From Eledone cirrhosa (lineage: Eukaryota): a stretch of DNA of 64,000 nucleotides. Below, in pieces: positions 20,201 through 64,000 of the stretch (its first letter is position 1; each line of letters begins with the position of its first letter). Location: positions 145,576,001 to 145,640,000 of the forward strand of contig OZ024740.1 of assembly GCA_964016885.1 (NCBI GenBank), given 5' to 3'. The position numbers and the translations under genes were made by a program. Under the pieces are notes generated by a model. The model was not told the DNA's origin, ran no database searches, and saw only the letters and a list, made by a program, of their open reading frames with translations.

Positions 20201-21019
20201 TTAAGCTCTAAAAGTTTACGAAATCCCTGTATTCTCACAAATTCATAAATCCTTTCATTGTTTGAGTTATGAAGATTGCTGTGTGAATGACTTTAATGTT
20301 ATTCACACTGCAAACTTACAGTTGAAGTTGACATATAGCCGTGTGTCATAATAGCTTAGTTGTATCAAGAAGTAATCAATAATACATTATGTGAATGTTT
20401 GTGTATGCAGATTAGAAGTAGACCTCAGATTTTAAATAATTACTGTATTTGATGGTATATAAGACCCACTTTTCTTTTATCAAAACAGACTAAAAATATC
20501 ATCCATGTCTTATAAGAGACGTTGAGCTACTTGTTTTAATAACATTAGATGCTTACTCATGTTGTTGTTGGACCTCCATCATTTTCTACAGGTGCTCCAG
20601 CTGATTCAATCAGTGGAGTTGCCTGCTTGTGAAATTAATGTGTAAGTAGCTAAGCATTCCACAGACACATTCTTAACGTAGTTCTCAGGGAGATTCAGCA
20701 TGACACAATGTGTGCCAAGGATGGCAACATGAATTACTGGTACAACTCACTTTTGCCAGCTGAGTGGATTAGAGCAACATGAAATATCCATAGTTACAAG
20801 AAAATACACAAAACATCCTCTTTTTCCAAACATTCCCTGCTGAGATCAGGGTGGGGGGAGGGGTTATCTTTTATGCCCATGGATCTTATATGCCATCAAG
20901 TACAGTAGTTCATTATAATAGAAGCCTAAAACAATATGTAGATAATTTGTTTTCAAAAATTATATTATTTTAAATAATGATTAAGATTGTAGGCTGCAGT
21001 TTAAAGCAGCAATACTTAC

Positions 21020-21982
21020 TGTAGATTCACTATCTCGAATTAGGAAGTCCCCATCTTCAGCATGTTTTGTAAGCATTTCTTCACACTGGGTCCGTGTTAT
21101 TTTCCCAAAATACCACTCTTTATCAGCTAGAGGTCCCGATAAATGCTGTGGTTTATGGTTAGGCATGCCGACCACACTAAGTGAGGATGCATTAGAAAGA
21201 CTACTAGCTGACTGAGAGTGTGGAGTACATGAGCTGTCATTGGTTGCAGTATCATATTCAATATCATCTACTGATTGAACATAATTACGTGGTACAAGAC
21301 CTAAATGGTCGAACTTGTTCCGTGCCTTCCACCAATCAGGATCCTCAATAGGTTTTTCAACAATTAATAAACGGTCCCCTTTTTCAAAGCTAAGTTCTTC
21401 TTGATTTGAACGTTTAAAAGTGTATAAAGCTGTGACGACTTCTATCCCCTCCATTGCACCAAAATCCACACGAGCAGTTGCAGATAAGTCAGAGGTTTGT
21501 TCCAACTCAACATAGTTGGATGGAAACCAACCATATTCTTCATTATCTTTTCGGCCACGCCACCATCCATCAATGGATTTCTGCATGACTATCACCTTCT
21601 CTGATTTAGTTAATGATATTTCATCAGGACGCTGAGCTTGATAGCCATATTTGACAATTGCGGGTACATGCTCGCAAATCTGGATATCAGCCCCTCCTGG
21701 ACTTTTTTGGTCAAGTGCTGCAACTCCATTTCTTGAAGCCTGATAGCTAGCAGCTGGACATTTGTTCTTTTTCCTAGTGAGTAAACTAGAGAAGAAGGAA
21801 GGCTTTGATTTTTTGACATAATTTGATGGTACAAAGCCAGATTTGCTCTGCATATTTTGTACTTTCCACCATTCTTTACTGTCGTCAAGAAGACGTAGCT
21901 TCTCATTCTTCTTAATGTCCAATTCTTGGCTGTTTTCAGCCTTATAATCATATTTTGCAATGACTATCACCTCCTCCGCCAT
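21020..21982 (-). CDS. NCK: Nck/dreadlocks adaptor, first coding exon (three SH3 domains + N-terminal part of SH2), 321 codons
   Basis: [13 protein letters not shown]...[10 protein letters not shown]...WWKV...GFVPSNYV is the Nck SH3-1 pattern; two more SH3 motifs ([16 protein letters not shown]) and SH2 start WYFGKITR...[10 protein letters not shown]. Donor ACA|gtaagt at 21020/21019 (phase 0); acceptor ttttcattttattcctcag| opens the exon at 22005, 23 nt before the ATG. Confidence 0.97.
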
Positions 21983-22496
21983 CTTTGGACCACATAACAG
22001 ACCATCTGAGGAATAAAATGAAAATATAACATTTAATTAGAATATGCAATTTTTATGTAAATTTTTATACAATTAAAAATACACTCACACGTATACATAT
22101 ATACATACACACATACATACATATATATATATACATACATACATACATACATACACATATATATATATATACATACACATACATATATATATATATATAT
22201 ACATACACACATGATGATGATGACATATATATAAGTATACATACACATACATATATATATACATACACACGCACATATATATATACATACACATACATAC
22301 ACATATAGACACACATACATACACACATATATATATACATACATACACATATATATATACATACATACACACACATATATATATACACATACATACACAC
22401 ATATATATACACACATACATACATACAAATATATATACATACATACAAATATATATACATACACACACACATATATATATATATATATAGCGAAGT

Positions 22497-27547: not shown

Positions 27548-29062
27548 ATGGCTTGTGAGAGCTATACAAGCCATGTATAAAGAAACAGTCAGCAAGGTTA
27601 GAATTAACAACGAATATAGTGAAGAGTTTAGTGTAAAAGTTGGTGTTCATCAGGGCTCTGTTCTTAGCCCCCTACTATTTATTATTGCCCTCCAGGCTAT
27701 AACAGTGGAGTTCAAGACCGGCTGCCCATGGGAACTCCTATACGCAGATGATCTAACGCTCATAGCTGAATCAATGGCCGAGCTAGAGAAGAAATTCCAA
27801 ACATGGAAGCACGGCCTAGAATCAAAAGGCCTTAAAATTAACCTGGCTAAGACTAAAGTTCTAGTTTGTAAGAAAGAAAATAAGGCGGCGGTCCCCTCCG
27901 GGAAGTGGTCATGCGCAGAGTGTAGGAAAGGCGTAGGTAGACATTCCATTTTGTGTCCCAAATGCAAAGTTTGGGTGCATAAAAGATGTAGTGGGATCAC
28001 AGGTAAGCTAACTAAGAACATAGATTTTACATATGGCCGGTGTTCTGGGGCAATAAGTAGCAGCAAGTGCTTTCAATTGCGCAGAGGGTTCTATAGAAAT
28101 AGTGGACAGCTTCCGTTACCTGGGTGACAAAATCAGCAGTGGGGGAGGGTGCTCTGAAAGTACAGTAGCTAGAGTCAGAACTGGGTGGAAAAAGTTCAGA
28201 GAGCTTATACCACTATTAGCCGCTAAAGGGTTCTCCCTAAAAATGAAAGGCAGGCTGTACGATGCCTGCATACGAACAGCAATGTTGCATGGCAGTGAGA
28301 CCTGGGCATTGTGTGCAGAGGATATACGCAGACTAGAGAGAAACGAAGCTTGCATGCTCCGCTGGATGTGTAATAGTAATATACGTGAACGACAAAGCAT
28401 AAACGAACTAAGGAAAAAATTAGAAATAAGAGGGATCAGATGTTGTTTACTAGAGAGAAGGCTACGTTGGTATGGTCACGTGATGCGCATGAAGGACGAT
28501 AGCTGTATAGCAAAGTGCAGGGCAATAAAGATAGACGGTAGCCACGGAATAGGCAGACCCAGAAAAACCTGGGACGAGCTGATAAACTCCGACCTCACAC
28601 ACTTACACCTCACCAAGACAATGTCACTGGACCGAGACCTTTGGCGGTACTCAGTAATAGAGAAGACCCGCCTTACCTAAATACAAAGTAAAACCTACTG
28701 TAGTCAGTAGGCATCTCTAACAAAATACACCCCCGTCCCACCACCCCCACCCCATCGCCCCCTTCTATGTAAAGTTATGTTGGTGCCACACCATCCAGGC
28801 AGAAACAAATGAGATCGTGTAGGTGTCATGACAAAAAAACACACAGTCCACGCTGTAATGTGGCCGTGTAGGCAACACGGTATAAACCTCCCAGACCCAC
28901 ACTGTAAATGTGGTTGGTGTTAGGAAGGGCATCCAACTGTAGAAAACCTGCCAGACAGTCCTATGCGAGCAAGACAATCACTCTTGCCTCAAGTGGGAAA
29001 ATCCCCGTCCAAACCCATGCAAGCGTGGAACACGGATGTTAAACGTTGATGATGATGATGAT
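27548..29062 (+). mobile_element. RTE LINE family B, 5'-truncated, frameshifted copy
   Basis: [31 protein letters not shown]; small deletion near 28069 shifts the frame; (GAT)n tail. Confidence 0.95.
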
Positions 29063-29199: not shown

Positions 29200-30597
29200 C
29201 ATCATCATCATCATCATCAACGTTTAACGTCCGTGTTCCACGCTTGCATGGGTTTGGACGGGGGTAGTCCCACTTGAGGCAAGAGTGATTGTCTTGCTCG
29301 CATAGGACTGTCTGGCAGATTTTCTACAGTTGGATGCCCTTCCTAACACCAACCACATTTACAGTGTGGGTCTGGGAGGTTTTTACCGTGTTGCCTACAC
29401 GGCCACATTACAGCGTGGACTGTGTGATTTTTTTGTCGTGACACCTACACGATCTCATTTGTTTCGGCCTGGATGGCGCGGCACCAACATAACTTTACAT
29501 AGAACGGGGTGGTGTGGATGGGGTGGGGGTGGTGGCGTGACGGGGTGTATTTTGTTAGAGATGCCTACTGGCAAGGCGGGTCTTCTCTGTTACTGAGTAC
29601 CGCCAAAGGTCTCGGTCCACTGACATTGTCTTGGAGAGGTGTAAGTGTGTGAGGTCGGAGTTTATCAGCTCGTCCCAGGTTTTTCTAGGTCTGCCTATTC
29701 CGTGGCTACCGTCTATCTTTATTGTCCTGCACTTTGTTATACAGCTATCGACTTTCATGCGCATCACGTGTCCATACCAACGTAGCCTTCTCTCGAGTAA
29801 ACAACATCTGATCCCTCTTATCTCTAATTTTTTCCTTAGTTCGTTTATGCTTTGCCGTTCACGTATATTACTGTTACACATCCAGTGGAGCATGCAAGTT
29901 TCGTTCCTCTCTAGTCTGCGTATATCCTCTGCACACAATGCCCAGGTCTCACTGCCATGCAACATTGCTGTTCGTATGCAGGCATCGTACAACCTGCCTT
30001 TCATTTTTAGGGAGAACCCTTTAGCAGCTAATAGTGGTATAAGCTCTCTGAACTTTTTCCACCCAGTTCTGACTCTAGCTACTGTACTTTCAGAGCACCC
30101 TCCCCCACTGCTGATTTTATCGCCCAGGTAACGGAAGCTGTCCACTATTTCTATAGAACCCTCTGCGCAATTGAAAGAGCTAGTATTTTGTGGGCACTTG
30201 CTGCTACTTATTGCACCAGAACACCGGCCACATGTAAAATCTATGTTCTTAGTTAGCTTACCTGTGATCCCACTACATCTTTTATGCACCCATACTTTGC
30301 ATTTAGGACATAAAATGGAGTTTCTACCTACGCCTTTCCTACACACCGAGCACGACCATTTCCCAGAAGGCACCGCCGCCTTGTTTTCTTTCCTACAAAC
30401 TAGAACTTTAGTCTTAGCCAGGTTAATTTTAAGTCCTTTTGACTCTAGGCCGTGCTTCCATGTTTGGAATTTCTTCTCTAGCTCGGCCATTGATTCCGCT
30501 ATGAGTGTCAGGTCGTCTGCGTATAGGAGTTCCCATGGGCAGCCGGTCTTGAACTCCTCTGTTATAGCCTGAAGGGCAATAATAAATAGTAGGGGGC
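29200..30597 (-). mobile_element. RTE LINE family B, 5'-truncated copy (tail-to-tail with the previous copy)
   Basis: Open frame PLLFII...YADD...PHD-like finger...FRYLG...WYGHVMR; (GAT)n tail. Confidence 0.95.
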
Positions 30598-31107
30598 AGA
30601 TATATACATACATACATACACACATATATATACATACATACATACACATATATATATATACATACATACATACACATATATATATACATACATACATACA
30701 CACATATATATACATACATACATACACATATATATATATACATACATACACATATATATATACATACATACACATATATATATATACATACATACACATA
30801 TATATATATACATACATACACATATATATATATACATACATACACATATATATATATACATACATACACATATATATATATACATACATACACATATATA
30901 TATATACATACATACACATATATATATATACATACATACATACATATATATATATATACATACATACATACACATATATATACATACATACATACATACA
31001 CATATATATATATACATACATACACATATATATATATACATACATACATACACATATATACATACATACACATATATATATATACATACATATATATATA
31101 TATACAT

Positions 31108-39798: not shown

Positions 39799-42377
39799 TC
39801 ATCATCATCACCGTTTTACGTCCGTTCTTCCACGCTAGCATGGGTTACACGGGTTGTCCTGTTGTGTGCAGTGTCTGGTCGGCTGACCATGCCTTGCTCA
39901 TACAGGAACTGATCTGGCTTGATTTCTACAGCTGGATGCCCTTCCTAACACCAACCTCATTTACAGTGAGTGCTGGGTGCTTTTTCGTGGCGCCTACACA
40001 TCCAGTTTACAGTGTGGCCTGGGTGCTTTTTTGCCGTGGCACCTCCACGACCACCTTGCGGTGGGGGGTGTGGGGGCATATTGTTTATATGCTTCAGCAT
40101 GTACCCATGGTAGGTCGGGTACTCTGTATTACTGCGTGACGCCAGAGATCACGGTCGTGTGTCATCGCCTTTGAGAGGTGTAATTGGGTACGGTCGGCTT
40201 TTATCACCTCATCCCAGGTCATCTTGGGTCTCCCCACTCCGCGGTTTCCATCGACTTCTAGTGCTCCGCACCTTTTTATGCAGCTGTCATCCTTCATACG
40301 CATCACATGTCCATACCAGCGCAACCGCCTCTCCTGCACACAGCATTTGATTCCTCTTATGCTCAGTCTCTCTCTCAATTCATTTATGCTTTGTCGTTCA
40401 CGTATATTACTGTTACACATCCATCGGAGCATGCAGGCTTCGTTTCTCTCTAATCTTCGTAAGTCTTCCACCTTCAGCGCCCAGGTCTCACTACCATGCA
40501 ACATCGCTGTTCGGATACACGCATCATACAGTCTGCCTTTCATTCTGAGGGAGAAGCCTTTTGCAGCTAGCAGTGGTAGTAGTTCCCTAAACTTCTTCCA
40601 TCCCGTTCTTACCCTAGTTATTGTACTTTCTGAGCACCCACCTCCGTTGCTAATTCGGTCACCTAGGTAGCAGAAGCTGTCTACTGTTTCTACAGGGCCC
40701 TCCCAGAGATTGGTGGTACGTGTTTCCTGTGGCTGTTTACTGCTTGCTGTTTCAGCACAGCTGCTGCATGTGAATCCTACATTCTTAATTAAGCTTCCTG
40801 AGATCCCGCTACATCTCTTGTGTACCCATTGTTTGCATTTGGGGCAGAGAATGGAGTTCCTACCTACACCTTTCCTACATACTGAGCAAGGTCATTTCCC
40901 TGAGGGGATCTGGGTTCTGTTTTCTCGTCTACTTACAAGGACCTTAGTCTTTGTCATGTTGACTTTGAGACCCTTTCTTTCTAGTCCCTGCTTCCAGGTT
41001 TGGAATTTATTCTCTAGTTCTACCATAGATTCAGCTATGAGTGCGAGGTCATTAGCATACAGGAGTTCCCATGGGCATCCGGTCTTAAACTCCTCCGTTA
41101 TTGCCTGCAGGACTATGATGAACAGGAGAGGGCTAAGAACAGAGCCCTGGTGGACCCCAACCTGGACGCTAAATTCCTCGCTATACTCATTGCTAATCCT
41201 AACTTTGCTGACTGCTCCCCTATACATGGCTTGTACCGCTATCACAAGCCATTCATCTACTCCTAGTTTTCTAAGAGCCCACCAGATTACAACACGTGGA
41301 ACTCTGTCAAAGGCTTTCTCAAGGTCGACAAATGCCAAGTAGAGTGGCTTACTTTTAGCTAGGTACTTTTCCTGTAATTGCCTCACAAGGAAGAGGGCAT
41401 CAGTGGTGCCTCTTCCTGGTACAAACCCAAATTGCATCTCGTCTATTTTCACCCGGTCCCTAATCAGCTGTGCTATAACTCTTTCTGTTACTTTCATGAC
41501 CTGGTCCATCAACTTTATACCTCTATAGTTTCCTCTATCTAGTGCATCGCCTTTACCTTTGTAGCAGTTGACAATGATGCTACTGCACCAATCTTTTGGT
41601 ATGGCCCCTTCTAGTATTACCTGGTTAACGATACGTGTGGTTATAGTGTGACCTACAGACCCAGATGCCTTCAGCATCTCGGCAGCTATACCCGATGGAC
41701 CGGTTGTCTTCCCCATCTTCATATCTTTGATTGCCTTACATACTACGCTGCTGCTGACTTGTACTGCTGGTCTCTCTATAGGGTCTACTTGGGGTAGGGT
41801 CTCTTCTTCCCATGCATTCTCCTCGTTTAGTAATCTATCATAATGACTCTTCCATGCATCTTTCTTCTCAGCGCTTGTGAGGGCAAGCTCACCTTTATCA
41901 TTCCGGATACACTTCTCTCCAATGACATCACAACTATCTCTGACACACTGCCTCGCAATCTTGAATACCTCCTGTTTCTGGTCCCCACGTTGTAAAACAT
42001 GCTTGAATTTTCTATCCTCTGCTTCCCTCCTAGCTAAGTATACTTGTCGCCTAGCTTCCCTCTTGGTCTCTATGTAATGTACCCTGCTCCCCCCGTTCTT
42101 CCATTCTTTCCAAGCCTGTCTCTTGGCCTTAACTGCTTCATCTACCTTATTGTTCCAGCACCAAGTCACTCTCCTCCTGTTTGAGGTCTTACTCCAGCCA
42201 CAGACCTCATCCGTTGCCTCTAGTAAATTATTTTTTAGGAACTCCCAATTCTCTTCTACGTTAAATGTCTATCTGTTCTTCTTTACTGTCGTAGGCGTTG
42301 AGTAAAATATCTTTAAATCTGTTACTGGTTGAGGGGACTTTCAGCTTCCAGATCTTTCTTCTCCAGGTTGGCCTCTG
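39799..42377 (-). mobile_element. RTE LINE family A, 2.6-kb 5'-truncated inactive copy
   Basis: RT motifs [34 protein letters not shown]; catalytic YADD reads YAND; premature TGA at 40894-40892; (GAT)n tail. Confidence 0.96.
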
Positions 42378-45142: not shown

Positions 45143-45781
45143 CATACATACATACATACATACACATATATATATATATATATATACATACATACATACA
45201 CATATATATATATATATATATACATACATACATACACACATATATATATATATATATATACATACATACATACACATATATATATATATATACATACATA
45301 CATACACATATATATATATATATACATACATACATACACACATATATATATATATACATACATACACATATATATATACATACATACATACACATATATA
45401 TACATACATACATACACATATATATATACATACATACATACACATATATATATATACATACATACATACATACACATATATATATACATACATATATATA
45501 TACATACATACATACACACATATATATATACATACATACATACATACACATATATATATACATACATACATACATACATACACATATATATATACATACA
45601 TACATACACATATATATATACATACATACATACACATATATATATACATACATACATACACATATATATATACATACATACATACACATATATATATACA
45701 TACATACATACACATATATATATACATACATACATACACATATATATATATATATATATATTTATTAAAATAACAGATTAA

Positions 45782-45832
45782 AGTTTAAGCAAAGAATCGC
45801 TGCTTTCACCCTTAACGGGATCTTCTGAAACT
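45782..45832 (-). ncRNA. Type I hammerhead-like motif with U4A core deviation
   Basis: aguuu-CAGAAGA-uccc(guuaa)gggu-GAAA-gca(gcgauucuu)ugc-U-U-aaacu; helices I-III pair; located at the PLE 3' end. Confidence 0.55.
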
Positions 45833-46102
45833 AACAAAGTCAATCTGTAAACGCAGAAGTGGATATTTCAAAAAACGTTGCAACCGGAGGAAGACAGGAA
45901 GACGATACTTTGGTTCGTGGAAACGTTCCCTGGCAAAGAACGGGAAAAAACGAATAATACGTCATTAATAGGAGCGGTGAAAAACAATTACGCGCAAAGA
46001 CAGAACCACGTTTATGGTATAAAAGAAGTCGTAGACTAATGTTCTCTTAGGTGGTGCATAGAGACGTTCTCTGGCAATGAACGGAAAAAACGAAGATAAT
46101 AC

Positions 46103-46332
46103 AAAAAAAACACAGTCCATGCTGTAATGTGGCCGTGTAGGCAACACGGTAAAAACCTCCCAGCCCCACACTGTAAATGTGGTTGGTGTTAGGAAGGGCA
46201 TCCAGCTGTAGAAAACCCGCCAGACAGTCCTATGCGAGCAATGACAACCACTCTTGCCTCAAGTGGGAAAACTCCCGTCCAATCCCATGCAAGCGTGGAA
46301 CATGGACGTTAAACGATGATGATGATGTGATG
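46103..46332 (+). mobile_element. RTE family B 3' UTR fragment nested in the Penelope-like element
   Basis: Matches 28835-29062; (GAT)n tail; flanked by aatac direct repeat. Confidence 0.88.
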
Positions 46333-48282
46333 AATACGTCATGTGTGGAGCGTGGAGAACAATAACACGCAAAGACAAAACCACGTAAAAGGTATAGCTG
46401 AAGTCAGACTAAATTCTAATTAGGAAACCGAATGAATCTCCGCTTCAGAGTTAAGAATAAAGTAAATAAATACAATACAGAGGTAATAGAAATTAAATAA
46501 ATGCATACACGCATGCAAATACGTACATACACAAGCATACGCAAAACACTTGCCATAGGTATACAAAACCACGCACATATAAATATGTGTGTGTGGGTGC
46601 ATGTATACAAATAAATAAATAATTAAATAAACGTATATAAATAAATAAATACGTATATAACAAGCGCACACACATACCTAGATGTAAATACACAAATGTT
46701 CGGAGACGTAAGTCAACCAAAACATGAAGTACACATATACACACACCCTACATACGTACGAACCTGCATACTCACGCAGACGCAAAACTCCCGTATACAC
46801 ATAACCAAACCATATGTACCAGAATATATAGAAAATTTATACGCCATAACAAAATCAATCAAATATACGTATGAGAAAGTATACGTACCTTCACAAAACA
46901 TACAGGTAATATATACTTACCTATGCAAATAAGTAATGGTATAAACAAAACATATACTTAGCTACCACATCAAGACGTAAAATATCCACGTATAGATCGT
47001 ACTATCCATTAGGGTATAATGTGGGGCTGTAATACAGGAAAGTTTTGTGCAATTTATGTTTACAAGCCGAAATTGCCTCAGAATTTTTGTTTAAGATGTG
47101 GTCTGTGGCGTAGAGTATTTCCAGGGCCTCAGCGGCGCAGAGGTCACATGGTCTTTTATTTCCGTTATACGATCTAGCCCTAGCTAGGATCTCCCAGTGT
47201 AACTTAAATTGGGTGTGGTTGTCTTTTAGACTCCAGATATAAGCTGAAAGTGACGTCATATTCCTTCTTAGAGGGTAACGAAAAGAATGGGTATGCATGT
47301 AAAGACGCTGCTTGAATCTATTGGCGGTTAATCCTATGTAGGCTCTACGGGACGTGGGTGTTTCAACCTTACATTTGTAGACAATGTTACTAGAGAGGCA
47401 TTTCCCGGATAGGGGGCAATCAACCTGATACCTACAATTACAGTTAGTCCTAACTACAGGGTTGCACGTGTTCCTACGGCTAAGTAGTTTAGCTAAATTT
47501 GAAGCTGTGATGTTATGTGCAAGGTTAGGAGTCGTATAGTAAGAAATTTTAATAGTATTTCTATTAAAAATTTTACTATATTTATGTGTAGGGGGAAAAT
47601 GCTTCGTAATAAGGGAAAGAAAGATCTTAGCTAATGGTGTGGCCACCTCCATATTATATGTTGGGTTATACCAACAAATGCGACGGGATCTATTTCTTCT
47701 AGGTCTATTTTCGTACTTTGTATATGCTACCTTATCGACAAATCCACTCCGAGCAAGAGCTTCATTGTAATAAGTGGAATGGTCGTTGAAAATATGCTCG
47801 TTAGTAGATAGACGGGAAAGCCTCAACGAAATGTTTCTTACCAGGTTCTTGGTTAGGCTGGCAGGATGGTTGGAATGCTTACTTATGTAATTAAGCGTAT
47901 CATTCGGCTTTCTATACGGGTAATACAACCCATTCGATAAATTGAGGGTAACGTTGAGGTAATTAACGACCGAGAGATTGGCCTCAACCTGTATAGAGAG
48001 GTTGAAGCCTTTAAAGAAGGCTGTGAGTTCTTTTCTGAACCTGTCGCAAGCGTGAGGTCCGCGCTTAGTCATGGTCAAACGACCATCGTCATGGTACAAA
48101 CCACCGCCCGCGTTGGGGAATTCGTCCTTGATAGAGAAAAGAGGGAAAAGGCCGATAAGATCAGTAACCTCCGTAGAATCGCTGGCGCCCATACGGTTCT
48201 TATATATTTGATATATATTTATCCTTATCGAGCCCTCTTTGGATTTTAGTCTTCAAATTTATTATTATTACTATATATATAT

Positions 48283-49766: not shown

Positions 49767-50903
49767 ATGGCTAACCAGCAAAAATCCAAACAGAACTGGT
49801 CTGATAATGAAATCGACATTCTAATAAACACATGGCATTGCCTTTCCCAAACAGAAGACATAGATGCTTCATGTCTGAACGACATTGCTAAACGTACAGT
49901 TCAACTTTTGAAAACTCGATCTGAACAACAGATTCAAAATAAATTAAAGCAAATCGAAATTGCTTTTAAATTAATCAATAAACATTTGGATAAACTACGG
50001 TGTGTTTTTTCTTCGGATGCTGTCCAGCAGCAGCATCAACAACAACAGCAGCTACAACGGCAACAACAACAACAGCTACAACAACAACATCAACAACAGC
50101 AACAACAACGACAACAACAGTGTGAACCACTCCTTGATTCATCAACAATGGCCGATCTACTAAATGAAACTATTGACCTCCCAGTAGCCTCCGTCTCACA
50201 GCAGGAAACGCCACATCCTTTCTCTGGCCCAGCAGTCCAATCATCACCACTGCCAACATCTTCTTCTCTGCCTACTACTACATCTTTGGCTACTGCTATC
50301 TCAAGGAATTTACCTTCTAATACCAGAACAAGAACTCTCCCTCCCACAGTCCACAAAGGTCGTCAAATCCTACTCAAACCATCATCTACACCTCTCACAA
50401 CACACACACCCACATACCCACCCACTCGAAACCCCATCATTTGCCGCTACTCTCTACGCTATAGAATATGTACGGATAGTGGCTGCAAATTCACCCATTT
50501 ACCTAGGACAAAACGATCTATCCCCACAAACAGCCACCACCATAATACATACTCTAATTTAACACCAACACAACCACCAATAACTCAAACAAGGAATCCA
50601 CAAATCTGCCGCTTTTCCCTGCGAGACAGATTGTGTTTAGACCGGGATTGTCCCTTTACCCATCTCCCGGGGACCCGTCGGACAAATGAAAATAAAATTA
50701 AAAATAAAAGCAAAAACAAAAACCATAACCTACATAAAAATAACCACTACCACAGTCACCAACAGTCTTCTAAACAGGAAACTTCTTCCTCTTTTTTAGC
50801 CATAATGAATCTGGCAAAAGAACTGGAAAAAAACATTCGAGCTATCACCCAGCACCACCCTCCACTATCACCCCACTGCACAAACTCCCATTGCTGCCAT
50901 TAA
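49767..50903 (+). CDS. LINE ORF1 (Myb/SANT-like N-terminus, poly-Q, two CCCH fingers), 378 aa
   Basis: ATG at 49767; [13 protein letters not shown]...[13 protein letters not shown]; two C-x8-C-x4-C-x3-H motifs. Confidence 0.8.
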
Positions 50904-53900
50904 CGAACAAACAAATTAACAACACACCAAAACAATTAAAACCATCCACTCTCGCCTCTACATTTTTGCTTAACGCCCAAGGCATCAGCCCTTCCACCAA
51001 TACTCAAAAATGGAAGATCAAATTCCTGGAGGACTGGATTGATGTCCATCCAAACCACATCCCTTTCTTCGTCCTCACTGAAACCCATCTCAGTAACCTC
51101 CACTTGGAAGCCGAGGTGAAAGTGAAAAATTTCAAAGCCATCCGTGCTGATCGCGCTGGCAGAAGAAAGGGCGGGACTGCCATTTATGTCCATAATTCTT
51201 TCTCAACAGAGGCTATGAACATATTCACTAATGGATACTGTGAAGCAGTCACTGTATTCAGTCAAACCAACAACCTAATAGTAGTTGGGCTCTATAGGCC
51301 ACCCCAAACGCCTGTACCATGCTTCAAGGAATGCCTCAACAGCATAAAGTGTTTCATCCAAGAGTGTCACCCTGACAACATCTTAATGATGGGGGACTTC
51401 AACCTCCCCGGAGTTGACTGGTCCACAAACAGCCTGCCACCAGGTTCTTCTGCCTCAACCTCTGACAGGGAAGCAGTGGAATCGCTTCTTGACTTCATGG
51501 ATGATTTCTTCCTATCCCAACTGGTGCTCGAACCAACGAGGTGCCACAAAAACGTCCTAGACTTAATTTTCAGCAATCACACTGACAATATCCACAAAAT
51601 TGCAGTGGAGAAAACTCTACTCTCTGATCATGACATGGTTCTCTGTGATCTGAGATTCCACCGTCCAATATACAAACCCAATGTCATCTCTCCTGTCCAT
51701 CCGTTTGACGCTATGGATTTCCACAATGCAAACTGGGAAGCGATCAGTCATGATCTTGCACATGTCGACTGGTCCTTCACGCACACTCATACACCCACTA
51801 ACATCAAAAAGTCCTGGCAGACATTTATGGACACTGTTACAAACATATGTGCTAAACACACCCCATTAAGAACTATAAACAAATCTAAGAGCAGAATCCC
51901 TAGAAATAGAAAAACGCTCATCAGAAAAATTAAGAGAACGAACAAAAAAATCAACAAGCTGAAATACTGTCAGCAGCAACACATCAACTTGACTGCCATT
52001 TCATCACTAAAGATTAAAAAACATAACCTCCAAAACAACATAATGTCCCTCATCAACAATCAGAGAAGAGCTGAAGAGGCCTGGGCCATTGAGAAGATCA
52101 AACTCAATCCCAAAGTGTTCTTTTCATTTGCAAAAAAACACAAAATCACTGGCTCTACTGTTGGCCCTCTAATTGATGAAAATGGCACTCTTCAAGACAA
52201 TGCTAAAACCATGGGTGAGATACTGCAGAAACAATACTGCTCTGTTTTCAGCAATCCTGATATGGCCGATCTGGGCTGTATCGGCGATGTTACTCCCCAT
52301 TACACCTTATCGGACATAACGTTTGGCGCCCCTGATGTCTTAGCGGCAATAAAGGAAATCAAGCATAATTCAGCAGTAGGTCCCGATAGGTTCCCTGCTT
52401 GTGTCTTGAAGGCGTGTCAACACCAACTTGCATCTCCTCTTGCCAATCTGTGGCGGAACTCACTGGATGCTGGATATGTGCCAGAAAACCTTCTATCCCA
52501 GTCTGTTGTCCCAGTTTTCAAAAAGGGAAACAAATCCCTTGCCGTGAATTACCGTCCAATCTCACTCACCTCTCATATCATTAAGGTATTTGAGAGAGTG
52601 GTGAGATCGCGAATGACCCACTTCCTTGAGAGTAACAATATGCTGAACTCCAACCAGCATGGATTCTGTAATGGAAGGGATTGCCTGACGCAGCTACTGC
52701 ATCACTTTGATGACATTTTGAGAGCCTTGGGAGAGGGTTCCAACACTGATGTTATCTACCTTGATTTCAGCAAGGCCTTTGACAGGGTTGATCATAACAT
52801 TCTACTGAGAAAGCTGTCCAATATTGGTGTCACTGGAAAGCTGCTGCAGTGGATCAAGAGCTTCCTGTCAAACAGAACCCAACATGTTGTAGTTGAAGGA
52901 GTCAAATCCAGCCCAGCCAAAGTCAGTAGTGGGGTCCCACAAGGCACTGTGTTGGGCCCACTTCTCTTCATCATCTATATTAATGACATCACTGACATCA
53001 TCAAACACAGCAACATTAAAATTTTCGCTGATGATTCCAAGCTCCAAAAGGTCATGAATGGCGTGGATGACCGGATAAGCCTTCAGTCAGACCTACTGGC
53101 TGTTACCCAATGGGCGGAAAAGAACAACATGTTACTGAACGAAGACAAATTCGAACTGATCCACTTTGGAAAAGAGGATGCTCTGAAACTCCCGTACTCC
53201 CTTCCCTCCGTGGAAACTCTCGTGGCATCTAACAACATCAGAGACTTGGGAGTAACCATGGACAGCAACATAAGCTGGGCCACGCATATAAGCAGCAAAG
53301 TTGACATGGCCCGCAGAATGTGTTCCTGGATCCTCAGAACCTTCCAGTCGAGAGATTCCCACACCATTATCCTTCTCTTCTCTACTTTTGCCCGACCACA
53401 CCTTGAATACTGTTGTCCACTGTGGTCTCCCCACACGAAACAAAGTATCATGAAACTTGAAGCTCCTCAAAGGGCAATCACGAAAAAGATAGATGGCATG
53501 TCAGACCTTGACTACTGGGGTCGACTAGAAAAGCTAAAACTTTACTCACTCCAACGTCGCCGTGAGCGTTATATTATCTGCATGATGTGGAAAATGTTCC
53601 ATCATCACTGCCCAAATGATGTTGGCATCGCCTTCAAGATACACCCAAGGCTTGGGCCCCGTGCTATCCGTCCCATACAAAAATCTAAATCGCAACTCAT
53701 AACAACAATACGGCACAATTATTTCACCTCAATCGGCCCTGCTCTCTTCAACATCACACCAGGACACGTCAAAACAGAAACTGACCACACAAAATTCAAG
53801 AAGTCTTTGGACAAATTCCTCCAAGTAATCCCGGACAAACCACCCACACCCGGATATGTCTCCGCAAACAGTAATTCTCTTCTCGAATGGGCCATGGTGC

Positions 53901-53911
53901 CCAAATCCTGA
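50774..53911 (+). CDS. LINE ORF2 (APE endonuclease + reverse transcriptase); frame open from 50774, start mechanism uncertain
   Basis: LLNAQG, LTETHL, GGTAIY, YRPP, MGDFN, LDLIF, SDH; [48 protein letters not shown]; no internal stops. Confidence 0.96.
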
Positions 53912-59021: not shown

Positions 59022-60067
59022 TAGGTATAGGATTATCCAAGATGTAGTAATGGTTAATTACTACACTGGATTTGAATCGAACGACCAGAAATGGTATTAT
59101 ATCGGATCTACCACCACATCGTTTAAATCTCGCTGGTACCGTCATCGATTCTCAATCAAACATCCGAATCACCGTTTTGTGACCACGCTCGCCAACAAGA
59201 CCTGGCATCTCCGTGAACACAACCAACAGTTCACCTTAAAATGGAATATACTTTCCAGCGCAAATGCATATCGGAGTGGATTGAAGTACTGCAGGTTATG
59301 TAACCTTGAGCTATTTTACATACTAAAATCCAAAAACAAACTACTTAACGATAGAATTGAACGATCATTATACTGCAACCACAAACTAAAAGCTAAATTC
59401 TCTCACTATAAAATAACTTAACATTCGAACCCGTAACTACAACACCACTCTCTAGCTTCTCTTCCCCCCACACTACAAGACAATACACTGCTTATCACTA
59501 TACATGGTAACTCAGTACAATTCCTAGATTACTACTACAAAACCAAAAGTTCACTCACCACACATACTTTATCTGTCCCCTCTCTACCTATATATCTCTC
59601 TCTACATCCATTACACTCTCTCTCTCTCACCTTTGACCTACCTCCCTCTCAACATCTATGAACTTGCCCTCTGGGGCAATAAATAATTCCGACCTCAACT
59701 ATCTATGCATCTCTCCAAAAGTAACCAATAAAACCCCTACCATAACATTTTGATTAAGATATCTACAAGCCACTCTCTCCTACTTCTCCAACCCCTGCAT
59801 ATCTTTCCTTCTCTCTCCCTCTTCCCTACTTTTCTCTCTTCCTGTTCCACTCTATCTTCCCCAACAACCCCACTTAAGGGTTTTTACATTGTACATTTAC
59901 CACTCTGCTCTGAGAAAACAGTGGTCACAGCATTGGATATTCGAGTTCTGCAAATACTTGTGAATTTGCACGTAGCGGAACTAGGCTGCAGTACCACCGT
60001 GGAAACACTTGTAAGCACACGGAATAAATTACCTTTTTATGATGTCTACCTGTTATTATTCATTCTT
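59022..60067 (+). mobile_element. Penelope-like element 3' fragment (GIY-YIG C-part 59050-59421 + pLTR) with 16-bp target-site duplication
   Basis: YYIGST...FKSRWYRH..S, LKWNIL, CRLCNLE, LLN; tatatgacatatatat at 59006-59021 and 60068-60083; AATAAA at 60023. Confidence 0.88.
59906..60017 (+). ncRNA. Type I hammerhead-like motif with very long helix II and G8A deviation
   Basis: ugcu-CUGAGAA-[acagtggt..cagc..agttc..tgcaaat / atttgca..gaact..gctg..accaccgt]-GAAA-ca(cu)ug-U-A-agca, just before AATAAA. Confidence 0.6.
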
Positions 60068-60390
60068 TATATGACATATATATATATATATATATATAAA
60101 AACAAATAACGAAACGAAATTAAATTTCGTTTCGTTTGTAACTCACTTTTGTATGACTGACGCTTAAACAATTAAGTTAAAAATGTACATCCACATATGT
60201 ATACTGAAATACTAGTATGCATATGAATACACACACGTATACATATGTAGATGTACCAAGTTTTTCACTGGTCACTTTACCGTGAGTGTCCAGCTATTCT
60301 GTATGTAAACACACAGACAAACCGGTTTTTAGAGTCATACTGGTTTTTGAGGAAACACCTTTCCTCTATTCTCCAGAAAGCCAGACAAGG

Positions 60391-60435
60391 AATATTGAAC
60401 TAGTTTCGTTGTTGTTACAACTCATCAGCAATATT
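60391..60435 (-). ncRNA. Minimal type I hammerhead ribozyme (unit 1)
   Basis: aauauug-CUGAUGA-guugu(aaca)acaac-GAAA-cuag-U-U-caauauu; canonical core, 7-bp helix I, 5-bp helix II, palindromic minimal helix III. Confidence 0.93.
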
Positions 60436-60856
60436 TACCTATCTACCGGCCTTTCTGGAGAATCGTAAAAGCACATATCGTTATATGCTTTTTCTATGAA
60501 AATTAGTAGTGGGCAGACTAATTTGCATAGAGTGTGAGTACGTACCGGTTCAACGGAGACGATAAAAACAAATAACGAAACAAAATTAAATTTCGTTTCG
60601 TTTGTAACTCACTTTTGTATGACTGACGCTTAAACAATTAAGTTAAAAATGTACATCCACATATGTATACTGAAATACTAGTATGCATATGAATACACAC
60701 ACGTATACATATGTAGATGTACCAAGTTTTTCACTGGTCACTTTACCGTGAGTGTCCAGCTATTCTGTATGTAAACACACAGACAAACCGGTTTTTAGAG
60801 TCATACTGGTTTTTGAGGAAACACCTTTCCTCTATTCACCAGAAAGCCAGACAAGG

Positions 60857-60901
60857 AATATTGAACTAGTTTCGTTGTTGTTACAACTCATCAGCAATAT
60901 T
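60857..60901 (-). ncRNA. Minimal type I hammerhead ribozyme (unit 2)
   Basis: Identical motif 466 bp downstream. Confidence 0.93.
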
Positions 60902-61322
60902 TACCTATCTACCGGCCTTTCTGGAGAATCGTAAAAGCACATATCGTTATATGCTTTTCCTATGAAAATTAGTAGTGGGCAGACTAATTTGCATAGAGTG
61001 TGAGTACGTACCGGTTCAACAGAGACGATAAAAACAAATAACGAAACGAAATTAAATTTCGTTTCGTTTGTAACTCACTTTTGTATGACTGACGCTTAAA
61101 CAATTAAGTTAAAAATGTACATCCACATATGTATACTGAAATACTAGTATGCATATGAATACACACACGTATACATATGTAGATGTACCAAGTTTTTCAC
61201 TGGTCACTTTACCGTGAGTGTCCAGCTATTCTGTATGTAAACACACAGACAAACCGGTTTTTAGAGTCATACTGGTTTTTGAGGAAACACCTTTCCTCTA
61301 TTCTCCAGAAAGCCAGACAAGA

Positions 61323-61367
61323 AATATTGAACTAGTTTCGTTGTTGTTACAACTCATCAGCAATATT
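61323..61367 (-). ncRNA. Minimal type I hammerhead ribozyme (unit 3)
   Basis: Identical motif 932 bp downstream of unit 1. Confidence 0.93.
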
Positions 61368-61984
61368 TACCTATCTACCGGCCTTTCTGGAGAATCGTAA
61401 AAGCACATATCGTTATATGCTTTTTCTATGAAAATTAGTAGTGGGCAGACTAATTTGCATAGAGTGTGAGTACGTACCGGTTCAACGGAGACGATAAAAA
61501 CAAATAACGAAACGAAATTAAATTTCGTTTCGTTTGTAACTCACTTTTGTATGACTGACGCTTAAACAATTGGCTTTCTGGAGAATAGAGGAAAGGTGTT
61601 TCCTCAAAAACCAGTATGACTCTAAAAACCGGTTTGTCTGTGTGTTTACATACAGAATAGCTGGACACTCACGGTAAAGTGACCAGTGAAAAACTTGGTA
61701 CATCTACATATGTATACGTGTGTGTATTCATATGCATACTAGTATTTCAGTATACATATGTGGATGTACATTTTTAACTTAATTGTTTAAGCGTCAGTCA
61801 TACAAAAGTGAGTTACAAACGAAACGAAATTTAATTTCGTTTCGTTATTTGTTTTTATCGTCTCCGTTGAACCGGTACGTACTCACACTCTATGCAAATT
61901 AGTCTGCCCACTACTAATTTTCATAGAAAAAGCATATAACGATATGTGCTGTTACGATTCTCCAGAAAGGCCGGTAGATAGGTA

Positions 61985-62029
61985 AATATTGCTGATGAGT
62001 TGTAACAACAACGAAACTAGTTCAATATT
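61985..62029 (+). ncRNA. Minimal type I hammerhead ribozyme (inverted segment)
   Basis: aatattgCTGATGAgttgtaacaacaacGAAActagTTcaatatt read directly on + strand. Confidence 0.93.
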
Positions 62030-62375
62030 CCTTGTCTGGCTTTCTGGAGAATAGAGGAAAGGTGTTTCCTCAAAAACCAGTATGACTCTAAAAACCGGTT
62101 TGTCTGTGTGTTTACATACAGAATAGCTGGACACTCACGGTAAAGTGACCAGTGAAAAACTTGGTACATCTACATATGTATACGTGTGTGTATTCATATG
62201 CATACTAGTATTTCAGTATACATATGTGGATGTACATTTTTAACTTAATTATATATATATATACACATATATATATATACATACATACATACATATATAT
62301 ATATACATACATATATATATACATACATATATATATACATATATATACATAGATATATATATATATATATATATA

Positions 62376-62408
<33 letters not shown>

Positions 62409-62409
<1 letters not shown>

Positions 62410-64000
62410 GATCGGGGGAACACACAAGCCAGGTAGATTATATCCTTACCAGAAGACGTGACAGAGTGTCTGTTGTTAACACTAAATCCCACCCCCATGA
62501 AGAATTCACCTCCCAACATAGACTGATAATTAGCGACCTCATAGTCAGGACGAGACGTACTAGACAGCGGAAGAGGACTATCCTCAGGAGAAAAATATGG
62601 AAGCTAAAGGACCCCATAGCCAGAAATAAATTCCAAAGCATATTACTTGACGCTTTCGACAGTAAGGAAGAGCAATTAGAGTCGTATAATATAGAGGAAC
62701 AGTGGGAATTCCTGAGAGCAAACCTGCTGACGGCGGCAGACGAAGTCTGTGGCTGGAGCAGGCCTGTAGGTAGGAGGAGAGTAACATGGTGGTGGAACAG
62801 TAAGGTGGAGGAGTCAATTAAGGCCAAAAAGCAGGCTTGGAAAGTATGGCGGGATGGGGGAAGTAGAGAAGACTATCAAGTGGCCAGGAGGGAAGCTAGG
62901 AGACAAGTGTACTTCGCAAGAAGGGAAGCAGAGGAAAGAAAGTTCAAGCATGTTCTACAACGTGAGGACCAAAAACGTGAGGTGTTCAGGATTGCCAGGC
63001 AATGTGTCAAGGAAAACCGTGATATTGTCGGGGAGAAGTGTGTACTTAACGATGATGGCATACTTGCCATCACCGACGCTGATAAGAAGGTAGCTTGGAA
63101 GTGTCACTACGAAAGGCTTCTAAATGAGGAGAACAAATGGGAGAAAGACAGTCTCCCCCAGATCGATCCAATAGAGGGACCAGCAGTGTTAGTTGAAGGT
63201 AGTATAATAAGTAAGGCAATCAAAGATATGAAGACGGGTAAGGCGGCTGGGCCTTCGGAAATAGTTGCTGAGATGCTGAAGGCATCTGGTTCGGTGGGAC
63301 ACACCATGGTCACCCGGATAGTTAACCAAGTCGTACAGAATGGGGTTGTTCCGAAGGAATGGCGTAGCAGCATCATCGTTAACTGCTATAAGGGAAAAGG
63401 AGATGCCCTAGATAGGAGTAACTATAGAGGCATTAAATTAATCGACCAGGTCATGAAGGTCACGGAAAAAGTAATAGCGCAACTAATCAGAGAGAGAATT
63501 GATCTAGATGAAATGCAGTTCGGGTTTGTGTCAGGCAAAAGTACCACAGACGCTCTTTTCATTGTACGACAACTACAGGAGAAGTACCTAGCTAAAAGTA
63601 AACCCCTATACTTAGCTTTCGTCGACTTGGAGAAAGCCTTCGACAGAGTCCCCCGTTCCATTATCTGGTAGTCTCTTAGAAAACTAGGTGTTGACGAATG
63701 GCTTGTGAGAGCTATACAAGCCATGTATAAAGAAACAGTCAGTAAGGTTAGAATTAACAACGAATATAGTAAAGAGTTTAGCGTAAAAGTTGGTGTCAAT
63801 CAGGGCTCTGTTCTTAGCCCCCTACTATTTATTATTGCCCTTCAGGCTATAACAGAGGAGTTCAAGACCGGCTGCCCATGGGAACTCCTATACGCAGATG
63901 ATCTAACGCTCATAGCTGAATCAATGACCGAACTAGAGAAGAAATTCCAAACGTGGAAGCACGGCCTAGAATCAAAAGGCCTTAAAATTAACCTGGCTAA
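62409..64000 (+). mobile_element. RTE LINE family B copy (end of APE + RT), runs off the window
   Basis: [35 protein letters not shown], premature TAG at 63669-63671, then QGSVLSP and YADD; near-identical to 27548 onward. Confidence 0.95.

What the first reader, a model, noticed from the sequence alone, without database searches (positions are those of the whole stretch)
60096..62250. 466-bp hammerhead tandem array: a candidate cephalopod retrozyme / viroid-like circular RNA system
Seen: near-identical non-coding units each with a canonical minimal type I hammerhead whose helix III is the palindrome AACUAGUU, flanked by (TA)n. Known: such minimal hammerheads cleave as dimers in tandem transcripts and characterise Penelope pLTRs and metazoan non-LTR retrozymes that yield small circular RNAs. 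Inference: multimeric transcripts self-process to 466-nt monomers/circles and are re-inserted by Penelope RT/GIY-YIG, which is encoded by neighbours in this window. The unit is longer than most described animal retrozymes as I recall them, and I know of no description in cephalopods.
Basis: partly seen in the sequence, partly recalled or inferred. Interest (0 to 1): 0.92.

Follow-up and report, generated by a model that had tools for sequence, protein, structure and literature searches.

The report
Octopus hammerhead retrozyme with Penelope scars
This is one of thousands of copies of a small, protein-free jumping RNA element with a self-cutting ribozyme, a kind known in other animals, and the shape of its insertions points to Penelope-type retrotransposons as the machinery that copies it around this octopus genome.

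Summary
The ribozyme is real, but the locus is not a plain tandem array. It is one inverted insertion in (TA)n: 3.2 units with three hammerheads on the minus strand, then 1.5 units with one on the plus strand. The 466-bp unit is a young, dispersed, non-coding family in an octopod genome (at least 7,742 exact ribozyme cores, at least 2,235 end/(TA)n junctions). Its helices covary across three sister families. In silico it meets the definition of a metazoan non-LTR retrozyme; cleavage and circles were not testable.

The insertions carry the Penelope-like-element (PLE) signature: two fixed 3' ends about 70 nt apart, scattered 5' breaks, inversions and (TA)n targets. In 60 of 61 fully resolved inverted inserts one arm ends at each site. 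No sampled copy is the pLTR of an ORF. The two neighbouring PLEs are truncated Hydra-clade fragments unrelated to the unit; a young Hydra family elsewhere is the best, unproven, mobiliser. Each unit also carries the octamer found at -77 in this genome's U6/MRP promoters.

Verdict: a new member of a known kind, with unusually clear mechanistic footprints.

The parts
60096..61571 (-). Long arm: 3.17 units, RNA sense on minus; 3' end at fixed site A (monomer nt 302, counted from the cleavage site) = 60096; 5' break at nt 225
61571..62250 (+). Inverted arm: 1.46 units, from nt 15 through one ribozyme to fixed site B (nt 228) = 62250
60391..60435 (-). Type I hammerhead 1 (helix I to helix I); H17 at 60398
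60857..60901 (-). Type I hammerhead 2; H17 at 60864
61323..61367 (-). Type I hammerhead 3; H17 at 61330
61985..62029 (+). Type I hammerhead 4 (only one in the inverted arm); cleavage predicted after 62022
60398..60863 (-). Complete cleavage-to-cleavage monomer 1 (466 nt; MFE -158.6 kcal/mol, z -10.5; ends held together by helix I)
60864..61329 (-). Complete cleavage-to-cleavage monomer 2
60096..60169 (-). PLE-type 'tail' (nt 229-302) between end sites B and A, with a 13-bp hairpin at 60108-60136 and a T5 run at nt 296-300
60521..60528 (-). Octamer of a candidate U6/MRP-type promoter (nt 336-343); repeats at 60987-60994 and 61453-61460
61892..61899 (+). Octamer of the candidate promoter in the inverted arm
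60077..60097 (.). (TA)n target, left flank (shared with the 3' end of the neighbouring Hydra fragment)
62251..62409 (.). (TA)n/(TACA)n target, right flank
59053..60076 (+). Neighbour, not part of the element: 3' fragment of a Hydra-clade PLE (GIY-YIG piece plus 3' UTR)
45761..48192 (-). Neighbour, not part of the element: 5'-truncated Hydra-clade PLE (RT C-terminal half, CxCX5C linker, GIY-YIG, 3' UTR)

Best explanation
A young, non-autonomous non-LTR retrozyme moved in trans by Penelope-like-element (PLE) machinery. (1, inferred) A promoter inside each unit, probably of the U6/MRP type, starts RNA just upstream of the hammerhead; some transcripts reach the next hammerhead. (2, structure shown, chemistry inferred) The hammerheads cut after GUU/GUC, probably helped by dimeric helix III, giving a highly self-paired 466-nt monomer that a host ligase closes, as shown for coral, mussel and axolotl. 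(3, scars shown, enzyme inferred) A PLE RT-endonuclease nicks both strands of (TA)n and starts reverse transcription at two fixed internal sites, nt 228-233 on one target strand and nt 298-302 on the other. Each cDNA runs around or along the template for part of a unit up to dozens of units and stops at a variable point. The two cDNAs are joined head to head, giving an inverted insert like this one. The best candidate enzyme is a young Hydra-clade PLE family, not the fragments in this window.
For: Dispersed and young: 5,142 + 2,600 exact cores of two helix II variants; 2,235 A-end and 644 B-end junctions with (TA)n, controls 0. In 20 loci chosen by the ribozyme rather than by TA, 16 of 18 A ends and 12 of 13 B ends run into (TA)n. 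In 99 loci chosen by one end, 60 of 61 inverted inserts with both ends at a fixed site are A+B, 1 B+B, 0 A+A (Fisher p 3e-15). The two arms of one insert differ by 0.6% against 4.1% between inserts (51 loci). This matches PLE anatomy (tail, inverted 5'-truncated copy) and PLE biochemistry: two adjacent internal RT starts flanking the tail, both strands nicked and extended (PMC11167929). Ribozyme under selection: 95.6% of cells paired, 7 of 11 pairs with double changes, slid controls 49% or less (31 chosen sequences). Monomer z -10.5. Units differ by a median 3 changes within a locus and 15 between loci; arrays reach 31 units. Hydra family PLE-X has the same two-end, (TA)n habit, many long open frames at 89-100% identity, and forms one arm of a retrozyme insert at L151. 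Octamer at -76 to -78 in 5 of 6 type-3 promoters seen and 0 of 4 U2 upstream regions; a matrix from 4 promoters finds it in three retrozyme families (0, 2, 2 of 1,000 shuffles).
Against: Nothing here shows transcription, cleavage or circles. In PMC11167929 cleavage was not needed for insertion; only 1 of 9 Xenopus dimers cleaved in vitro. 5' breaks pile up only weakly behind the cleavage site: 15 against 8.5 expected, p 0.024, one of 19 bins. Some arrays hold recurring unit variants or 3- and 4-unit repeats (L045, L159, L160), which one monomer circle does not explain. The unit has no similarity to the Hydra 3' ends tested. Junction partners are mixed: Hydra (L106/L151), a Neptune-like RT (L173), a sister retrozyme (L103) and a small TA element (L109). 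Each could be nesting plus deletion, as is likely for L211. The promoter reading has problems: TATA spacing is 42-43 nt against 46-47 in U6, local alignment to U6 upstream was not significant for the octamer (24 of 200 shuffles), RNase P lacked the motif, and two T5 runs (nt 215, 296) would stop Pol III.
Confidence: 0.82

Rival explanations
1. The unit is simply the pseudo-LTR of an autonomous PLE, and the arrays are its 5'-truncated or tandem remnants.
For: PLE-type ends; 24 of 57 Xenopus retrozyme families match known TEs, nearly all PLE termini; junctions to PLE sequence at L106 and L173; the search for such a parent was a sample, not exhaustive.
Against: None of 99 end-chosen loci shows a recurring non-unit sequence or ORF upstream, so such copies are under about 3%. 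Arms read on into further units instead. PLEs in the fetched loci carry their own hammerheads with other palindromes. The only other hammerheads with this palindrome found (1,509 matches) were sister retrozymes in 19 of 20 loci fetched, 1 unrelated, none with a PLE ORF directly upstream in the output seen (cut for part of L141).
Confidence: 0.07
2. Same element and same PLE enzyme, but the template is an uncleaved linear multimer from a source array; the ribozyme and circles are by-products, and long arrays grow by unequal crossing-over after insertion.
For: Unprocessed RNA is the dominant PLE substrate in vitro; arms read through cleavage sites with only weak pile-up; recurring unit variants and higher-order repeats.
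Against: About half of both A arms (41 of 82) and B arms (44 of 81) exceed one unit. Repeated 5' truncation would shrink arrays without a re-multimerising step. Homogeneous arrays with locus-specific changes fixed in every unit of both arms (L108) imply a monomer bottleneck. The ribozyme covaries.
Confidence: 0.25
3. A SINE-like Pol III element mobilised by a LINE (RTE or CR1, both abundant in the window), with end A being the transcript's oligo-U end and inversions made by L1-type twin priming.
For: End A falls in a T5 run (ends at 298, 300, 302); candidate type-3 promoter; young LINE frames in the window.
Against: The second site is fixed, not random; A-arm breaks are not enriched at site B (11 against 7.2 expected, p 0.11) as L1-type twin priming (recalled) predicts; either end can lie on the long arm; inserts include the upstream promoter and many units.
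Confidence: 0.06
4. A passive satellite or an assembly artefact with a chance ribozyme-like motif.
For: Flanked by low-complexity (TA)n; below Rfam's gathering score.
Against: Thousands of dispersed copies with fixed ends; covariation; contigs of run X1 show loose TA ends at the same two sites (X1 may not be independent of the assembly).
Confidence: 0.01

Closest known systems
Metazoan non-LTR retrozymes (Cervera and de la Pena 2020, PMC7229834: coral, mussel, axolotl)
   Same: Tandem non-coding units, canonical type I hammerhead in each, GC under 50% (35% here), highly self-paired monomer, thousands of copies, coexistence with PLEs.
   Different: Cephalopod host; 466 nt against 170-400 nt RNAs. 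Fixed double 3' ends, inversions, (TA)n targeting and an internal promoter were not seen in the passages read ('inverted' 0 and 'microsatellite' 0 occurrences; supplement unreadable). Expression is shown there, not here.
Vertebrate retrozymes as PLE pLTR derivatives (Li, Clavereau, Pollet, bioRxiv 10.64898/2026.07.22.740005)
   Same: Meets their working definition (two or more consecutive units with complete hammerheads); size within 51-972 bp; PLEs in the same genome.
   Different: No sequence link to the PLE termini tested here; the link is the insertion scar. Arrays here arise as dispersed inverted inserts, whereas they propose local amplification of a pLTR. Their 35 genomes (31 vertebrates, 3 insects, 1 coral) include no mollusc.
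Penelope-like elements: Poseidon PAc biochemistry (Frangieh 2024, PMC11167929) and Hydra clade (Craig 2021, PMC8557442)
   Same: Two RT start sites flanking a tail with a stem-loop, both strands extended, AT-rich or (TA)n targets, inverted 5'-truncated copy, hammerhead upstream of the ends.
   Different: No ORF; tail about 70 nt against 30-40; the two sites assort one per arm, whereas PAc showed no strand difference in vitro.
Newt satellite 2 and Schistosoma hammerhead repeats
   Same: Tandem hammerhead repeats with short palindromic helix III, dimer-assisted cleavage; their own promoters (snRNA-type in newt, Pol III in schistosomes; recalled, from no call).
   Different: Here the motif matches this genome's U6/MRP promoters and not its U2 upstream regions.
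Hammerhead viroids (Avsunviroidae) and viroid-like cccRNAs
   Same: Small, non-coding, self-paired, hammerhead-processed RNA.
   Different: Genome-encoded, ribozyme in one polarity only, spread by reverse transcription.

Membership tests
Type I hammerhead ribozyme | Intact core CUGANGA / GAAA / UH with helices I and II | tested here: met
Type I hammerhead ribozyme | Self-cleavage at the predicted site | not testable with these tools
   no assay; 5' break pile-up weak
Minimal hammerhead (min-HHR of PLEs) | No helix III/loop 3, long helix II (7-8 bp), short helix I | tested here: not met
   helix I 7, helix II 5, helix III with palindromic loop against PMC4209133 passages
Non-LTR retrozyme | Tandem units each with a complete type I hammerhead | tested here: met
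Non-LTR retrozyme | Non-coding, no LTR structure, GC under 50%, unit of a few hundred bp | tested here: met
   (GC 35%); size ranges. PBS and PPT were not searched for separately.
Non-LTR retrozyme | Highly self-paired monomer | tested here: met
   z -10.5; 67% paired as a circle
Non-LTR retrozyme | Dispersed, mobile copies | tested here: met
Non-LTR retrozyme | Accumulates as linear and circular monomer RNA | not testable with these tools
PLE-mobilised element | Optional tail: two alternative fixed 3' ends | tested here: met
   ends at nt 228-234 and 296-302 in 165 arms
PLE-mobilised element | 5' truncation with inverted copy; microsatellite target | tested here: met
   70 of 100 groups in 99 loci inverted; TA flanks
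PLE-mobilised element | Identity of the enzyme (Hydra, Neptune or other) | tested here: inconclusive
   junctions with both Hydra and Neptune-like copies; no shared end sequence
pLTR of an autonomous PLE | Attached 5' to an RT-GIY-YIG ORF | tested here: not met
   0 of 99 loci with a recurring upstream ORF; sample only
Viroid / viroid-like replicon | Ribozymes in both polarities | tested here: not met
Viroid / viroid-like replicon | RNA-to-RNA replication without a DNA form | tested here: not met
   thousands of genomic DNA copies; extra RNA-to-RNA copying itself is not testable
Type-3 Pol III (U6/MRP) promoter | Host upstream octamer motif | tested here: met
Type-3 Pol III (U6/MRP) promoter | TATA at the host spacing and a working start site | tested here: inconclusive
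   42-43 nt against 46-47 nt (counted); function untested

The most novel reading that the evidence does not exclude
A self-promoted circular-RNA parasite of Hydra-clade PLEs that is not descended from a pLTR but mimics the PLE tail by structure. It carries a captured U6/MRP-type promoter in every unit, and a dimeric PLE enzyme copies one circle by two rolling reverse transcriptions, each target strand obligately using a different start site. The A+B rule would then be a general, so far unreported property of PLE integration.
Probability: 0.3. Interest if true: 0.75.

Novelty: new member of a known kind. Interest (0 to 1): 0.52.

Why it matters
Which enzyme moves animal retrozymes, and how, is stated as open: PMC7229834 names LINEs or PLEs, and the 2026 preprint says the mechanism remains to be elucidated. 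This family gives thousands of young insertions whose ends reproduce the two-site initiation measured for a PLE protein. It adds a strict one-site-per-arm rule that constrains how the PLE dimer works, and a defined 466-nt RNA with predicted start, cut and priming sites that can go straight into the published in vitro assay. It also extends retrozymes to cephalopods. The class itself is known, so it is not a new kind of system.

Tried and rejected
1. A first count suggested 5' breaks pile up right behind the cleavage site (22 against about 8, p 3e-5, none in nt 442-466). This was largely an edge artefact of aligning to a monomer; after realignment it was 15 against 8.5, p 0.024, carried by B arms (10 against 4.4). 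It is not used as evidence of cleavage.
2. Rfam at gathering score found nothing in the window; the miRNA and snoRNA hits at loose E-values are TA-rich noise.
3. RNA runs: no RNA holder listed. Four runs of unrecorded kind were laid as contigs. X1 and X5 (organism A) hold the unit richly; organisms B (1 contig, depth 4.5) and C (18 contigs, low depth) hold it weakly. No conclusion on expression or host range was drawn.
4. L211 was first read as a PLE-retrozyme chimera; it is a retrozyme lying inside a PLE 3' UTR in place of about 155 nt and is treated as ambiguous. L170 abuts a PLE end across (TA)16 and is nesting.
5. I first took the PLEs for Neptune; their motifs fit Hydra.
6. No similarity between the unit and four Hydra 3' regions (63, 56, 95 and 6 of 100 shuffles as high).
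7. U2 upstream regions share no specific motif with the unit; RNase P upstream (110 nt seen) lacks the octamer. The first script to cut U6 promoters matched nothing and was redone.
8. Target-site duplications are mostly hidden in (TA)n; one clear long one at L186; none can be read at the window locus.
9. Earlier-scan look-ups returned nothing.
Rows dropped: L178 (duplicate of L177) before the 99-locus counts; arms with other 3' ends or cut by a locus edge before the break statistics; 22 redundant loci; 39 of 70 distinct ribozyme variants (mostly single copies) were not put into the alignment, but all 70 were tallied.

Full report
OBSERVATION. Tandem Repeats Finder gives 3.2 copies of a 466-bp unit at 60096-61571. 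BLAST of the unit shows that the rest, 61571-62250, is the same sequence reversed. A structural scan of the whole window on both strands finds four hammerheads only: three on minus (H17 at 60398, 60864, 61330) and one on plus (62022). Rfam matches all four to Hammerhead_HH9 at E about 1e-7, under the gathering score. Helix I has 7 bp, helix II 5 bp, and helix III is 1-2 bp around the palindrome ACUAGU. This is the canonical metazoan type I form that can fold as a dimer (PMC4209133, passages); the 6-bp dimer helix is predicted at -4.8 kcal/mol. The cleavage-to-cleavage monomer folds at z -10.5 with its ends joined by helix I. Positions below are monomer nt counted from the cleavage site. The host is an octopod: the Nck exon is 96% identical to an Argonauta hians cluster.

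FAMILY. The exact 31-nt core occurs 5,142 times and a variant with a compensatory change in helix II 2,600 times, reversed controls 0. 144 distinct natural units are 88.5-100% identical to the window unit, median 97%. Two sister families of about 430-520 bp share the palindrome and layout at about 70% identity over part of the unit; one pattern for them gives 1,509 matches against 1 control. Across 31 of 70 ribozyme variants, 95.6% of cells pair, 7 of 11 pairs change on both sides, and slid controls reach at most 49%. These sequences are related, so the shuffle counts are not probabilities.

INSERTION ANATOMY. The genomic 3' ends are not at the ribozyme. They fall at nt 296-302 (site A) or nt 228-234 (site B) and run into (TA)n. 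Exact junction patterns count 2,235 A ends and 644 B ends. I took 60 loci from the B list and 40 from the A list, all on contig C1 and in list order, skipping those already held; one duplicate was dropped. Of 100 element groups in 99 loci, 70 are inverted: 60 A+B, 1 B+B, 0 A+A, 5 with one other end, 4 cut by the locus edge. B-chosen loci gave 40 A+B and 1 B+B; A-chosen loci gave 20 A+B and 0 A+A (Fisher p 3e-15). Several of the 30 other groups still show a stub of the opposite end. Either end can be on the long arm, and about half of each arm type exceeds one unit. The two arms of one insert differ by 0.6%, arms of different inserts by 4.1%, so both come from one source in one event. The window locus is typical: A at 60096, B at 62250, 5' breaks at nt 225 and 15 meeting at 61571.

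WHAT THAT MEANS. A tail at one end, an inverted 5'-truncated copy and microsatellite targets are PLE hallmarks (Craig 2021, passages). For a purified Poseidon protein, reverse transcription starts at two adjacent internal sites that bound the tail, both target strands are nicked and extended, and a dimer is predicted (Frangieh 2024, main text parts 1-2 of 4). The retrozyme reproduces this with a 70-nt tail holding a 13-bp hairpin and adds a one-site-per-arm rule; that paper saw no strand difference in vitro. The scar is shown; the enzyme is inferred.

WHICH PLE. The two PLE pieces in the window have the CxCX5C linker, CxxC and CxH and lack CCHH, as described for the Hydra clade, which targets (TA)n (PMC8557442 section 11). 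I classed them by motif and built no tree. Both are 5'-truncated and unrelated to the unit, so they are neighbours by shared target. A third Hydra family, PLE-X, is young: 93 scored matches at 89-100% identity, open frames up to 816 aa. It has two ends about 90 nt apart and its own hammerhead. At L151 one arm starts at retrozyme site B and passes, over a 5-nt microhomology 8 nt upstream of a cleavage site, into a PLE-X 3' UTR and RT, while the other arm is PLE-X. Against this, L173 joins a Neptune-like RT, L103 a sister retrozyme and L109 a small TA element, L211 looks nested, and the unit shares no sequence with Hydra ends. The partner is not settled.

NOT A pLTR. None of the 99 loci has a recurring upstream sequence or ORF. 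This bounds such copies at about 3% but does not exclude a rare parent.

TEMPLATE. Units differ by a median 3 changes within a locus and 15 between loci (191 units, 70 loci). Some arrays are uniform with locus-specific changes fixed in both arms (L108); one arm has 31 units. That fits rolling reverse transcription of a monomer circle, the model of Cervera 2020 (Discussion). But L045 has 3- and 4-unit repeats, and L159 and L160 have recurring variants, which need multimeric templates or later recombination. 5' breaks are only weakly enriched behind the cleavage site once an alignment artefact is removed.

PROMOTER. I noticed an octamer (motif name recalled) at nt 336-343, present in 129 of 144 units and kept with its flanks in both sister families. 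I then looked at host promoters. It lies at -76 to -78 in three distinct U6 promoters, RNase MRP and, with one mismatch, U6atac, but not in RNase P (110 nt seen) or four U2 upstream regions. One U6 promoter shares 14 of 14 nt with the unit. A matrix from four promoters picks this site in all three families (0, 2 and 2 of 1,000 shuffles; three PLE UTR controls score 3.3, 1.0 and 10.3 against about 15). The matrix was anchored on the octamer, so the test is partly circular. Anchoring puts +1 at G413, or at the start of helix I in the sisters. Against: TATA spacing is 4 nt short, plain local alignment was not significant for the octamer, and T5 runs at nt 215 and 296 would stop Pol III, so unit-length RNA would need read-through. 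I give this about 60%.

COMPARISON AND NOVELTY. It meets every testable feature of non-LTR retrozymes (PMC7229834, passages and Discussion; supplement not readable; bioRxiv 10.64898/2026.07.22.740005, parts 1-3 of 5; its supplements were not seen). It fails the viroid and pLTR tests. Seven full-text searches (listings only, plus passages of PMC6155905 and PMC10886601) showed no cephalopod retrozyme and no report of tails, end assortment or a U6-type promoter in one. The library lacks most subscription papers and Repbase was not searched, so a prior annotation may exist; unseen supplements may list cephalopods. The Craig supplement (first places only) lists octopus Naiad PLEs, one with a half hammerhead core.

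VERDICT. A new member of a known kind. Retrozyme moved by PLE machinery: 0.82. Circle as the main template: about 0.6. Hydra as the enzyme: about 0.5.

Noticed in passing
L109:2946-3088; also L059, L078, L102, L125 and others: A roughly 170-bp (TA)n-flanked element with an internal palindrome and an inversion at a seemingly fixed point, with two ends about 85-90 nt apart; matched in 46 of the fetched loci. Possibly a minimal non-autonomous PLE derivative without a ribozyme.
   Followed up: partly
L055, L060, L082, L103, L131-L150, L152-L154: Two older sister retrozyme families (about 430 and 470-520 bp) with the same helix III palindrome, a mismatch at the base of helix II, GUA or GUU triplets, and in one a (TA)n expansion inside the unit.
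   Followed up: partly
L035, L050, L055, L058, L074, L079, L097, L118, L121 and others: Many other hammerheads in PLE-like termini, each with its own palindromic helix III and long helix II; this genome holds a diverse hammerhead set.
   Followed up: partly
L045 (G000:C1:375634600-375644500): An array of about 19 units with 3-unit and 4-unit higher-order repeats.
   Followed up: partly
G000:C1:5738087-5752751: A single inverted insert of about 14.6 kb with 31 ribozymes on one arm and one on the other.
   Followed up: partly
L012:1098-1216; L001:1460-1490; L039:2215-2229: Short pieces resembling Hydra-type PLE 3' regions joined to retrozyme 5' breaks; possible template jumps.
   Followed up: partly
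L091:3670-3734: About 65 nt of GC-rich foreign sequence captured between the two arms, both of which break at nt 14.
   Followed up: no
window 20981-22036 (-): Large exon of the Nck/dock adaptor gene (three SH3 domains and the start of SH2).
   Followed up: partly
window 50774-53911 (+) and about 49770-50900 (+): A LINE ORF2 frame of 1,045 aa with AP endonuclease and RT, preceded by an ORF1-like frame with a glutamine run; 98.9-99.6% identical 3' pieces occur at L081 and L123, so the family is young.
   Followed up: no
window 62412-64000 (+), 40094-42268 (-), 27600-28680 (+), 29555-30600 (-): Several RTE-like LINE fragments (family name from recall), mostly abutting (TA)n/(TACA)n tracts.
   Followed up: no
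G000:C19:31780605-31840331; G000:C3:307349256-307453739: Long tandem clusters of U6 (about 1.8-kb period) and U2 (about 2.2-kb period) genes; some U6 copies carry an insertion of about 200 bp near the TATA box.
   Followed up: no
L213-L215, L227, L228: Octopod type-3 Pol III promoters place an octamer at -76 to -78, close to the TATA box, while U2 upstream regions have a different conserved block.
   Followed up: partly
L177 and L178: Identical insert and flanks 17.7 kb apart on C1: a local duplication or an assembly duplicate.
   Followed up: no
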